Source: a virus (Duplodnaviria > Caudoviricetes). From it: 60,393 nucleotides of DNA. The stretch lies in the IMG/VR virus record IMGVR_UViG_3300031164_000001, positions 1 to 60,393 of that record. One strand, given 5' to 3'. The position numbers and the translations under genes are program-made. Below are positions 25,441-25,859 of the stretch, piece after piece. Within the stretch, counting starts at the first letter, position 1, and each line of letters begins with the position of its first letter. The notes under the pieces are model-generated. The model was given only the letters and a program-made list of their open reading frames with translations. It made no database searches and had not been told where the DNA came from.

Positions 25441-25859
25441 TTCCCCTATGGACTTAGGGGAATGGACACAGACTCAGACTCAGATTGAAATTCAAGCTCA
25501 GTAGCCGCCGGACAGTGCAAGTTCGAATCTTGCCCCGGGCACCACATGCCCGGGTAGCCCAATTGGAAGAGGCACCGGCACTCAATCAGGCTCTTGTCCA
25601 AGACTCAACATTGCTACAGCGCACCAAATCGACCACGCGCGAACGACCCTTAGCCGGATGCGGGTTCGAATCCTGCCGGGGCCTCCACTCATGGCCCCGT
25701 AGTCCAATGGCAAGACACGGCGAGACATCAGACTGATTCACGCGTTTAAAAGTGTTGGCGCGATCATGGGTAGCAAACAATGGAAGCTCACACCCGAGCA
25801 ACGGTCTCTTAAACCGTACACATTGGAAGGGGCGGGTCGTCGGATATGCGGCCCGCCCC
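25441..25859 (+). ncRNA. Large structured RNA containing two circularly permuted tRNA-like modules and a D/anticodon module
   Basis: Modules at 25507-25579, 25653-25721 and 25778-25825; long-range stems; terminal GC hairpin 25829-25859. Confidence 0.8.

What the first reader, a model, noticed from the sequence alone, without database searches (positions are those of the whole stretch)
25441..25859. Large ncRNA built from tRNA parts: two circularly permuted CCA-bearing tRNA modules on long arms
Seen: module 1 has the 3' half first (GCCGG 25507-11, T arm GCAAG-TTCGAAT-CTTGC, CCCGGGC-A-CCA 25534-44). A 3-nt linker follows, then the 5' half (GCCCGGG-TA, D arm GCC-CAATTGGAAGA-GGC, CCGGC 25575-79). 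Module 2 has the same topology with a different sequence: GCCG 25653-56, GCGGG-TTCGAAT-CCTGC, CGGGGCC-T-CCA, a 5-nt linker, GGCCCCG-TA-GTC-CAATGGCAA-GAC, CGGC 25718-21. Neither has an anticodon loop. The anticodon stems instead extend into long interrupted helices: TGGACA 25463/TGTCCA 25595, GATTGA 25483/TCAATC 25582, TTGCTAC 25611/GTAGCAA 25770, ACGCG 25635/CGCGT 25741. Known: bacterial YrlA Y RNAs have one such permuted module and partner Ro60/Rsr, and two-piece tmRNAs are permuted; no Ro60 gene and no G3:U70 pair are visible here. Inference: this is an undescribed multi-domain tRNA mimic. RNase P and 3' trimming could convert it into a multi-piece RNA with two chargeable CCA ends (A73, Leu-like; G1G2C3/U73, Cys-like).
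Basis: partly seen in the sequence, partly recalled or inferred. Interest (0 to 1): 0.95.

Follow-up and report, generated by a model that had tools for sequence, protein, structure and literature searches.

The report
Two-headed tRNA-mimic RNA with DUF7873
Just after an uncharacterised phage gene lies a roughly 420-base structured RNA carrying two rearranged tRNA look-alikes, and the same protein-plus-RNA pair turns up in many phages and soil bacteria, so it looks like a widespread, so far unnamed RNA-protein machine.

Summary
Window 25441-25859 holds two circularly permuted tRNA cores, each with a T arm, a 7-bp acceptor stem closed by a loop, and a D arm. Each core sits on a long helix.

It is not chance. 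A profile of the RNA hits 155 of 161 loci that encode a relative of the upstream protein, DUF7873. Covariation supports the stems.

In 151 genomes of one bacterial family, protein and RNA occur together in 93 and are both missing in 54. Four genomes are discordant.

No other neighbouring gene is conserved. No Rfam family reaches its threshold, and YrlA scores 25 bits against a cut-off of 69. The phage has no Ro60. Of 40 host genomes, 15 lack it, and it is never adjacent to the cassette.

CCA in the acceptor loop is not a family feature: it is encoded in 34 and 33 of 115 modules. C74, the discriminator base, G+1 and the 7-bp stems are conserved, so RNase P opening is plausible but unshown.

Best reading: a Ro60-independent, YrlA-like two-domain tRNA mimic that works with a probably dimeric DUF7873. 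Its cellular role is unknown.

The parts
24706..25437 (+). DUF7873 gene (243 aa), the conserved partner of the RNA
   Evidence: Matches Pfam PF25283 over its full length: E 2e-99, 332.7 bits against a cut-off of 27. It is 51% identical to Gordonia phage GodonK gp152. The homodimer model scores 0.71 against a best control of 0.00.
25441..25462 (+). 5' hairpin just after the stop codon (CCCCTA/TAGGGG); its loop holds TGGAC
   Evidence: Seen in the sequence and in the MFE fold. Many relatives have an equivalent hairpin whose loop is complementary to the 3' arm of domain 1.
25463..25600 (+). Domain 1: a long interrupted helix (TGGACA 25463-68 / TGTCCA 25595-600) capped by tRNA-like module 1
   Evidence: The outer helix keeps pairing through double changes in 6-12 of 74 sequences per pair. 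The exact complement of the 3' arm 5-mer is present upstream in 55 of 72 sequences, against 0.16 occurrences per sequence for shuffled 5-mers.
25470..25505 (+). Hexamer repeats (A-N-N-Y-U-N, four to five units) in the 5' arm of domain 1
   Evidence: A and T are near-invariant with period 6: A36, T40, A42, T46, A48, T58 and A60 of the first sequence in alignment A2.
25507..25579 (+). Module 1: permuted tRNA core, in the order anticodon-stem 3' strand, variable loop, T arm, acceptor 3' strand, loop A-CCA-CAT, acceptor 5' strand, D arm, anticodon-stem 5' strand
   Evidence: Matches Rfam YrlA at 25.4 bits, E 0.0046, below the cut-off of 69. Across 74 sequences the T stem is paired in 98.4% of cells, the acceptor stem in 98.3% (7 of 7 pairs with double changes) and the D stem in 99.5%.
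25601..25610 (+). Linker between the two domains (conserved CUCAGCA-like stretch in relatives)
   Evidence: Consensus of alignment A2.
25611..25776 (+). Domain 2: outer helix TTGCTAC/GTAGCAA, two inner helices and a conserved internal loop (ATCGA 25628-32 facing TTAAA 25746-50), capped by module 2
   Evidence: The covariance model R1 scores 137.7 bits. In alignment A3, 86.2% of cells are paired against 63.5% in shuffles. The covariation score is 0.611 against 0.194 (0 of 500 shuffles reach it) and at most 0.148 for slid partners.
25653..25721 (+). Module 2: second permuted tRNA core; its acceptor loop is T-CCA-CTCAT (25684-92)
   Evidence: Matches Rfam YrlA at 24.7 bits. The T stem is paired in 99.7% of cells, the acceptor stem in 99.8% and the D stem in 99.5%.
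25777..25828 (+). Insert specific to this copy: two small hairpins enclosed by CAATG/CATTG
   Evidence: Seen in the MFE fold. In relatives the 3' hairpin follows domain 2 after a median of 4 nt; here it follows after 52 nt.
25829..25859 (+). 3' hairpin of 12 bp with the conserved loop CGGATAT (GGNYA core)
   Evidence: Such a hairpin is present in 96 of 104 full-length relatives, against 7 of 104 control windows. Only 19 of the 96 are followed by a T-rich run. The terminator scan of the window calls nothing here.

Best explanation
Window 25441-25859 encodes a structured non-coding RNA of about 420 nt. It belongs to a large, uncurated family that always goes with the DUF7873 gene.

The RNA has two similar domains and a terminal hairpin:
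- Each domain is a long interrupted helix whose tip is a circularly permuted tRNA core: T arm, 7-bp acceptor stem closed by a loop, D arm. The helix replaces the anticodon loop. This is the design of YrlA-type bacterial Y RNAs.
- A 3' hairpin with a conserved loop ends the RNA.

Most likely (inferred) mechanism:
- The RNA is the scaffold of a Ro60-independent RNA-protein particle.
- A DUF7873 homodimer binds the conserved single-stranded elements, namely the hexamer repeats of domain 1, the ATCGA/TTAAA internal loop of domain 2 and the hairpin loop.
- The two tRNA-like heads are then offered to tRNA-handling factors. [quoted passage not shown] Other targets, including tRNA-directed nucleases, are possible.
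- Phages carry their own copy, often inside their tRNA gene arrays.

Shown here: the structure, its conservation and covariation, the coupling to DUF7873, the independence from Ro60 genes, and presence in RNA libraries of one Streptomyces relative.

Inferred only: protein-RNA binding, any processing, and the cellular role.
For: Family and linkage:
- A profile of the RNA hits 156 of 162 sources (161 loci plus the window). Nearly all hits start 0-140 nt after the DUF7873 stop codon, on the same strand.
- Clustering of the neighbours finds only DUF7873 in 160 of 160 loci. The next real family is in 11.
- In 151 genomes of one bacterial family the protein is present in 96 and the RNA in 94. Both are present in 93, neither in 54, protein only in 3 (one a fragment), RNA only in 1.
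- In 20 of 20 host genomes there is exactly one full-length domain-2 match, scoring 115-164 bits.
- In two Herpetosiphon genomes the RNA lies on another contig, or 1.8 Mb from the gene, with no DUF7873 beside it. The pair is therefore kept even when unlinked.

Structure:
- Covariation supports the stems.
- The anticodon-stem equivalent is fully paired in 57 of 109 first modules and 73 of 111 second modules. Shuffled controls give 8 each.

Reach of the family:
- Two modules are also found after distant DUF7873 genes of Klebsiella, Ralstonia, Pseudanabaena, Arthrobacter and Rhodococcus phages. One is found in a Rhizobium phage.

Link to tRNA genes:
- 22 of 60 viral loci have 3 or more tRNA genes within 4 kb, all on the same strand.
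- The cassette sits inside the annotated tRNA arrays of GodonK, Mimi, NiceHouse and RHph_Y65.

Protein:
- The homodimer model scores 0.71 against a best control of 0.00.
- That mark was reached by 20 of 30 proteins solved as pairs of one chain and by 1 of 23 solved as single chains. These counts hold only roughly here, because my own alignment was used.
- The runs share at least 98% of contacts and the partner pLDDT is at least 89.

Expression:
- Contigs from two RNA-seq libraries of one study cover the relative's RNA at L126 5881-6024, 5883-5997 and 5968-6092, with mean word depths of 229, 105 and 74.
- Contigs over the coding region have depths of 14 and 11.
- The tool warns that contig depth is a poor measure of expression.
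Against: - No experiment or computation here shows that DUF7873 binds RNA. Its fold has no match in the PDB (Foldseek: nothing at E <= 0.001; sequence profile: nothing below E 0.6). It has no PHROG, NCBIfam or PADLOC family.
- The coupling could reflect joint inheritance of neighbouring DNA rather than joint function. Related genomes share both, so the 2x2 table is not a set of independent events.
- Five Streptomyces loci lack module 1 and one viral locus keeps only a module. The two-headed design is therefore not obligatory.
- The helices of the domain 1 arm are poorly supported on the MAFFT alignment: 31-61% of cells are paired.
- The expression evidence comes from contigs of one study only. 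DNA carry-over in RNA libraries cannot be excluded from contigs.
Confidence: 0.7

Rival explanations
1. RNase P cuts 5' of each acceptor 5' strand (window 25547|25548 and 25692|25693), exonucleases trim the 3' side, and the RNA becomes a nicked three-piece molecule. Its two free CCA ends are then aminoacylated and act in translation, in the manner of tmRNA.
For: - Both acceptor stems are 7 bp and are paired in 98-99.8% of cells.
- G at +1 occurs in 104 of 115 first modules and 76 of 115 second modules.
- U is the commonest base at -1 (47 and 60 of 115).
- C74 occurs in 87 and 108 of 115.
- The discriminator is module-specific: A in 92 of 115 first modules; U or G in 108 of 115 second modules.
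- M. smegmatis YrlA has a 7-bp stem and is cut by RNase P and given CCA in vivo (Chen 2014, PMC4201824, passages read).
- One RNA-library contig of the Streptomyces relative ends at L126 5997, the discriminator base of its module 2. This is a weak hint only, because contigs cannot show ends.
- My recollection, not from any call: bacterial RNase P RNA pairs with C74/C75 of its substrates.
Against: - CCA is encoded in only 34 and 33 of 115 modules, and some loops are only 4 nt.
- Contigs from both RNA libraries bridge the intact module 2 loop, at L126 5881-6024 and 5968-6092.
- There is no anticodon.
- Neither module has G3:U70.
- ARAGORN calls no tmRNA, and Rfam tmRNA_permuted scores 13.1 bits against a cut-off of 47.
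- No conserved tag reading frame was found. The period-6 repeats conserve A and U only.
Confidence: 0.15
2. It is an ordinary YrlA-type Y RNA, perhaps two in tandem like YrlA/YrlB. It binds the host's Ro60/Rsr ring and tethers it to an effector.
For: - The module topology matches YrlA, and both modules give weak Rfam YrlA matches (25.4 and 24.7 bits, E 0.005-0.007).
- TROVE genes are present in 25 of 40 carrier genomes.
- The Ro60-site pattern GNCGAAN0-1G occurs in 37 of 104 RNAs, against about 18 expected.
Against: - The scores are far below the YrlA gathering score of 69.
- The complete phage record has no TROVE gene.
- No match was found in 15 of 40 carrier genomes, and where TROVE is present it is never near the cassette.
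- In at least 10 of 20 genomes the rsr gene has its own separate permuted module beside it.
- The Ro60 pattern is absent from the window and sits at varying places in relatives.
Confidence: 0.08
3. It is a cis-acting 3' untranslated region, terminator or attenuator of the DUF7873 mRNA, or a leader of the next gene, with no function of its own.
For: - In most loci it follows the stop codon directly, on the same strand.
- One RNA-library contig runs from the coding region into domain 1, at L126 5004-5910.
Against: - In Herpetosiphon the RNA is unlinked from the gene.
- It is on the opposite strand in L069 and upstream in L065.
- The downstream genes differ between loci.
- Only 19 of 96 3' hairpins have a T-rich tail.
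- A 330-nt covarying structure with two tRNA cores is far more than a terminator needs.
Confidence: 0.05
4. It is a decayed remnant: tandem tRNA genes, a recombination scar at a tRNA attachment site, or a chance assembly. Alternatively it is coding sequence, for example the 83-aa ORF at 25485-25736.
For: - The covariance model's tRNA-core part also hits tandem identical tRNA genes (L170 and L171), so dimeric tRNA genes can imitate the topology.
- ORFs overlap the region.
Against: - Compensatory changes are seen in every stem across phyla.
- Loop lengths vary from 4 to 59 nt without regard to reading frame.
- The element is a single copy, strictly coupled to one protein family.
Confidence: 0.02

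Closest known systems
YrlA (Rfam RF02553), the tRNA-like bacterial Y RNA bound by Ro60/Rsr
   Same: - The tRNA core is permuted in the same way: T arm, acceptor stem closed by a loop, D arm.
- The anticodon stem is continued into a long stem formed by the flanking strands.
- YrlA also occurs in phages.
- Both modules give weak Rfam matches.
   Different: - This RNA has two such domains in one conserved RNA of about 330-420 nt, plus a conserved 3' hairpin.
- Its constant partner gene is DUF7873, not rsr.
- It scores 25 bits against the YrlA cut-off of 69.
- Its acceptor stems are always 7 bp, whereas most YrlA stems are described as poor RNase P substrates (Wang 2018 preprint, passages read).
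- Carrier genomes keep separate rsr-linked modules.
Mycobacterium smegmatis YrlA (Chen et al. 2014, PMC4201824)
   Same: - It has a 7-bp acceptor stem.
- It is cut by RNase P and receives CCA in vivo.
- It is made together with a second T-arm-bearing RNA from one precursor (passages read).
   Different: - It is encoded next to rsr and bound by Rsr.
- It has one full tRNA-like domain.
- Processing of the present RNA is not shown.
Two-piece (circularly permuted) tmRNA
   Same: The gene order is 3' half with T arm and CCA, then a linker, then the 5' half. There are weak matches to the tRNA-like part (13-14 bits).
   Different: - No tag reading frame was found.
- There is no G3:U70.
- No pseudoknot domain was found.
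- ARAGORN finds none.
- Scores are far below the cut-offs of 47 and 84.
- There are two heads, not one.
Circularly permuted tRNA genes of red algae and some archaea (as cited in the Wang 2018 preprint)
   Same: The acceptor stem starts as a closed loop, and the flanks pair as an extended anticodon stem.
   Different: Those are matured into real tRNAs with anticodon loops through a circular intermediate. Here no anticodon loop exists, and the flanking helices are long, conserved and covarying.

Membership tests
YrlA / bacterial Y RNA (RF02553) | Reaches the Rfam gathering score (69 bits) | tested here: not met
   The two modules score 25.4 and 24.7 bits. Nothing reaches threshold in the window or in 10 related loci.
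YrlA / bacterial Y RNA (RF02553) | Encoded next to an rsr (Ro60, TROVE domain) gene | tested here: not met
   The complete phage record has no TROVE match. TROVE is present in 25 of 40 carrier genomes, always at another place, and 15 of 40 have no match.
YrlA / bacterial Y RNA (RF02553) | tRNA-like domain with T arm, D arm and loop-closed acceptor stem in permuted order | tested here: met
   Seen in the sequence. These stems are paired in 98-99.8% of cells, with many double changes.
YrlA / bacterial Y RNA (RF02553) | Terminal stem carrying the Ro60-binding pattern GNCGAAN0-1G (named in Chen 2014) | tested here: not met
   Long terminal stems exist. The pattern is absent from the window. It occurs in 37 of 104 relatives, at varying places, against about 18 expected.
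YrlA / bacterial Y RNA (RF02553) | Bound by Ro60/Rsr in cells | not testable with these tools
   Needs immunoprecipitation.
tmRNA, two-piece form (RF04321) | Model score at threshold; tag reading frame; G3:U70 | tested here: not met
   It scores 13.1 bits against 47. ARAGORN finds none. The third acceptor pairs are C:G in both modules.
Canonical tRNA (RF00005) | Cloverleaf in normal order with an anticodon loop | tested here: not met
   The only tRNA call in the window is tRNA-Gln at 10923-10995.
DUF7873 (PF25283), for the partner protein | Full-length match above the curated cut-off (27 bits) | tested here: met
   332.7 bits, covering residues 1-242 of 243.
Known anti-phage defence systems (PADLOC-DB 2.0) | The protein matches a defence-system model | tested here: not met
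   No family matches DUF7873 or three of its neighbours at E <= 0.01.

The most novel reading that the evidence does not exclude
DUF7873 and this RNA form a previously unrecognised class of RNA-protein particle, found in about six in ten sampled species of one actinobacterial family and in phages of at least three bacterial phyla. [quoted passage not shown] The result is a nicked particle with two tRNA-like 3' ends. It engages the translation or tRNA-repair machinery, or it soaks up tRNA-directed toxins during phage-host conflict. That would explain why phages place it inside their tRNA arrays.
Probability: 0.25. Interest if true: 0.92.

Novelty: new variant of a known kind. Interest (0 to 1): 0.82.

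Why it matters
The function of the tRNA-like domain of bacterial Y RNAs is still unknown. Here the same design appears twice in one RNA, freed from Ro60 and tied to a different, very strongly conserved protein (about 60% identity across phyla).

The pair is common. It is in 96 of 151 sampled genomes of one actinobacterial family. At least 112 viral contigs carry it, as do cultured phages of Gordonia, Arthrobacter, Rhodococcus, cyanobacteria, Klebsiella, Rhizobium and Ralstonia. In every record I opened the RNA is unannotated.

If confirmed, this gives:
- a new large structured RNA family for Rfam;
- a first functional handle on DUF7873;
- a genetically tractable system (Streptomyces, or Gordonia phages) for asking what permuted tRNA mimics do;
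- an explanation for a 400-1100 nt 'empty' gap in many phage tRNA arrays.

Tried and rejected
Rejected readings:
- Coding region or tRNA remnant. Rejected on covariation and on loop-length variation.
- tmRNA. Rejected.
- The period-6 repeats as a Lys/Arg-Leu peptide tag. I dropped this because only A and U of each hexamer are conserved and the intervening positions vary freely.

Searches that gave nothing:
- Fold of DUF7873. The AlphaFold2 monomer has pLDDT 75.4 and pTM 0.51. Foldseek against the PDB gave no match at E <= 0.001, only weak PUR-alpha-like rows. The Atlas look-up returned only DUF7873 clusters and unnamed proteins. A PDB sequence profile found nothing below E 0.6.
- PHROGs, NCBIfam and PADLOC gave no family.
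- Literature. These searches found no description of this RNA: 'DUF7873' (0 papers); YrlA + tRNA-like (6 papers); tRNA-like + actinobacteriophage; permuted tRNA + bacteria + noncoding RNA; Y RNA + Streptomyces + tRNA-like (0); tRNA-like + jumbo phage + noncoding RNA (0). The library lacks most subscription journals, and supplements were not opened. The supplementary tables of Chen 2014 could list related loci.

I did not build a structure-aware alignment of domain 1.

RNA-library lay:
- Stretches without cover were L126 4857-4970 and 6111-6395 in both RNA runs, and 5738-5882 in X2.
- Contig depths cannot rank expression.
- X1 and X3, from two studies, have contigs that stop at 6024 and 6023, while X19 goes on. 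This is a weak hint only, and the kinds of X3 and X19 are guesses or unknown.
- The repeated 30 letters of X1 record 3 and the repeated 26 letters of X2 record 11 may mark circular graph paths, template switching or self-ligated fragments. The tool's own joint table lists none, so I draw no conclusion.
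Full report
**1. Observation**

- Module 1 (25507-25579) and module 2 (25653-25721) have the same gene order: anticodon-stem 3' strand, short variable stretch, T arm (loop TTCGAAT), acceptor 3' strand, a closing loop (A-CCA-CAT; T-CCA-CTCAT), acceptor 5' strand, TA, D arm, anticodon-stem 5' strand.
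- A pattern scan for T arm plus 7-bp loop-closed acceptor stem finds only these two sites on both strands of the window.
- ARAGORN and Rfam at gathering score find only a tRNA-Gln at 10923.
- At relaxed threshold both modules match Rfam YrlA (25.4 and 24.7 bits, against a gathering score of 69). The tmRNA models match only weakly.
- The stretch folds better than any of 100 shuffles (z -3.0).

**2. Setting**

- The window is a complete virus record with terminal repeats. GC content is 57%.
- It is a tailed phage with an integrase (20614-22017, minus strand), primase/polymerase, terminase, portal, protease, major head, tape measure and minor tail genes.
- The element lies 3.4 kb from the integrase, among small plus-strand genes with helix-turn-helix or SAP domains.
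- It starts 4 nt after the stop codon of ORF 24706-25437, a full-length DUF7873 protein (PF25283, E 2e-99).
- No sigma-70-like promoter or canonical terminator is called on the plus strand around it.

**3. It is a family**

- Gordonia phages GodonK and Phendrix match module 1 at 78% identity, in an unannotated gap that follows their DUF7873 gene (51% protein identity).
- DUF7873 has 3169 cluster representatives at E <= 0.001, at about 60% identity across phyla.
- I collected 80 viral and 80 bacterial loci around relatives. The viral scan confirmed 112 of 124.
- A sequence profile built from 64 two-module loci hits 156 of 162 sources. Nearly all hits start 0-140 nt after the stop codon, on the same strand.
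- Exceptions:
  - L065 has the RNA upstream.
  - L069 has it on the opposite strand.
  - L064 and L086 have it further downstream.
  - L027 has it split.
  - Five Streptomyces loci lack module 1.
- Six loci give no hit. One of them had only 186 nt of downstream sequence.
- L035 is the same phage as L001, and a few other viral loci are duplicates of each other.
- With a covariance model of domain 2 (R1), several of the weak or missed loci are recovered.
- Distant DUF7873 genes in cultured phages are each followed by an unannotated gap of 410-1160 nt. Two modules are found in that gap in Klebsiella, Ralstonia, Pseudanabaena, Arthrobacter and Rhodococcus phages, and one in a Rhizobium phage.

**4. 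Structure**

On MAFFT alignments that know nothing of structure:

- Domain 2 (66 sequences) has 86.2% of cells paired, against 63.5% in shuffles. Covariation is 0.611 against 0.194 (0 of 500 shuffles reach it) and at most 0.148 when partners are slid. All seven helices are supported: outer 68.6%, next 80.9%, next 89.1%, anticodon-like 68.3%, T 99.7%, acceptor 99.8%, D 99.5%.
- Domain 1 (74 sequences) has T 98.4%, acceptor 98.3% (7 of 7 pairs with double changes) and D 99.5%.
- Anchored on the modules, the anticodon-stem equivalent is fully paired in 57 of 109 first modules and 73 of 111 second modules. Shuffled controls give 8 each.
- The 5' arm of domain 1 carries four to five hexamers with near-invariant A and U.
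- Domain 2 has a conserved internal loop, ATCGA facing TTAAA(C)G.
- A 3' hairpin with a GGNYA loop follows in 96 of 104 full-length relatives, against 7 of 104 control windows. Only 19 of the 96 have a T-rich tail.
- In this phage, a 52-nt insert separates domain 2 from that hairpin.

**5. The acceptor loops**

Figures are for 115 loci with two modules, from 164 loci scanned. I left out L035, L065, L069 and L086. Eighty-eight of the 164 had exactly two pattern hits.

| Feature | Module 1 | Module 2 |
|---|---|---|
| Loop length | 4-47 nt | 6-59 nt |
| Encoded NCCA | 34 of 115 | 33 of 115 |
| Discriminator base | A in 92 | U in 65, G in 43 |
| C at position 74 | 87 | 108 |
| G at +1 | 104 | 76 |
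| Commonest base at -1 | U (47) | U (60) |

CCA is therefore not a family trait. The loop start and the stem geometry are constrained in the way tRNA precursors are.

Chen et al. 2014 report that M. smegmatis YrlA, which has a 7-bp stem, is cut by RNase P and extended to CCA in vivo, and that Salmonella and Deinococcus Y RNAs are not (passages read). The Wang et al. 2018 preprint says the same (passages read).

**6. Coupling to DUF7873, not to Ro60**

- Clustering ORFs within about 3 kb of the gene finds only DUF7873 (and its shadow ORFs) in 160 of 160 loci. The next real family is in 11 loci.
- Bacterial neighbours are unrelated housekeeping genes: SpoIIE phosphatase, S9 peptidase, F420H2 quinone reductase, MmyB-like regulator, aromatic amino acid hydroxylase, esterase.
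- In 151 genomes drawn from the family of one carrier, the protein is in 96 and domain 2 (E <= 1e-18) in 94. Both are present in 93, protein only in 3 (one a fragment), RNA only in 1, neither in 54. Each is always a single copy.
- In the seven pairs I compared by eye, domain 2 starts 190-199 nt after the gene, on the same strand.
- Kin share both traits, so these are not independent events.
- In 20 of 20 carrier genomes there is one full-length domain-2 match. In two Herpetosiphon genomes it lies on another contig, or 1.8 Mb from the gene, and no DUF7873 is found beside it.
- TROVE is absent from the phage. It is found in 25 of 40 carrier genomes, never next to the cassette.
- In at least 10 of the 20 genomes searched with R1, a separate, weaker permuted-module match lies beside the TROVE gene. 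This is the canonical YrlA arrangement.
- Other weak matches proved to be tandem identical tRNA genes.
- The Ro60-site pattern is not in the window and is not positionally conserved in relatives.

**7. Phage context**

- ARAGORN calls at least one tRNA within 4 kb in 32 of 60 viral loci, and three or more in 22. All calls are on the cassette's strand. A few single calls fall inside the element itself.
- In GodonK, Mimi, NiceHouse and RHph_Y65 the cassette sits inside the annotated tRNA array.
- In the present phage the nearest tRNA gene is 14.5 kb away.

**8. Expression**

- For the Streptomyces locus L126, 17 RNA-labelled runs hold at least part of the stretch.
- I laid four runs. In two RNA-seq libraries of one study, contigs cover the coding region (L126 5004-5910 and 5040-5737; depths 14.3 and 11.2).
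- Separate short contigs cover the 3' arm of domain 1 plus domain 2 (5881-6024, depth 229; 5883-5997, depth 105; 5968-6092, depth 74).
- These contigs bridge the domain linker and the intact acceptor loop of module 2.
- The tool warns that contigs cannot show ends, strand or level, and that DNA may be present in RNA libraries. I take this as a hint of accumulation of an uncut form, no more.

**9. The protein**

- DUF7873 has no relative of known function.
- A homodimer model passes the controls: score 0.71, best of three controls 0.00.
- The mark was reached by 20 of 30 proteins solved as pairs of one chain and by 1 of 23 solved as single chains. These counts hold only roughly here, because my own alignment was used.
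- The runs agree in at least 98% of contacts. Partner pLDDT is at least 89, against 75 for the monomer model.
- A symmetric dimer facing an RNA with two like domains is an attractive fit, but it is inference.

**10. Verdict**

The element is a real, conserved, structured RNA. Its closest known relative by design is YrlA, but it fails the tests for membership:

- its Rfam score is below threshold;
- it is not linked to rsr;
- it lacks the Ro60 site.

It also differs in having two domains, a conserved terminal hairpin and a different constant partner gene.

I rate it a new variant of a known kind, the permuted tRNA-mimic RNAs. I consider it very likely to be a Ro60-independent RNA-protein particle. 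RNase P opening of the heads is possible (roughly even odds for some cleavage). Aminoacylation is unlikely.

Within the limits of the held library, I found no description of it in Rfam 15 or in six literature searches.

Noticed in passing
window 25449-25453 and 25463-25468, against 25595-25600: The 3' arm motif of domain 1 (TGTCCA) has two possible partners. One is TGGACA just before the hexamer repeats. The other is TGGAC in the loop of the hairpin that follows the stop codon. In several phage relatives only the hairpin-loop copy is an exact complement (offsets -56 to -68). This suggests a pseudoknot or alternative pairing.
   Followed up: partly
L126 5881-6024 and 5883-5997 (Streptomyces relative, table 8): Two high-depth RNA-library contigs carry 30 and 26 extra letters that lie again on their own other end. 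With 7-nt and 4-nt microhomology, the implied joins are about 6024->5881 and about 5997->5883. Position 5997 is the discriminator base of module 2, and 5881-83 is the end of the module 1 D loop. The cause could be circular graph paths, template switching at an RNA end or modified base, or self-ligated fragments. The tool's joint table lists none.
   Followed up: partly
L172 2947-3020 (G011:C1:6855646-6855719): A solitary permuted tRNA-like module with an ACAC tetraloop closing a 7-bp acceptor stem. It lies far from both the DUF7873 cassette and the TROVE gene of that genome.
   Followed up: no
L125, L131, L150, L154, L161 (Streptomyces loci): These are single-headed variants. The profile matches the 5' arm and domain 2 but skips module 1 (model positions of about 78-143 are missing).
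   Followed up: no
L168 and L169 (Herpetosiphon genomes G031 and G004): The two-domain RNA stands alone, with no DUF7873 gene within about 2 kb. The genome's DUF7873 gene is elsewhere (1.8 Mb away, or on another contig).
   Followed up: partly
L018, L020, L021, L026, L029, L039, L045, L049, L052, L167: In many phage loci a tRNA-Lys(CTT) gene lies within about 50-330 nt upstream of the DUF7873 start.
   Followed up: no
L001 1-89 (Gordonia phage GodonK): The phage tRNA array that holds the cassette begins with the 3' end of a tmRNA gene (Rfam tmRNA, 57.6 bits, cut off by the locus end).
   Followed up: no
window 26798-27145 and 27163-27501: Two adjacent paralogous small genes, both matching phrog_889 and phrog_30739 (function unknown), lie about 1 kb downstream of the RNA.
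   Followed up: no
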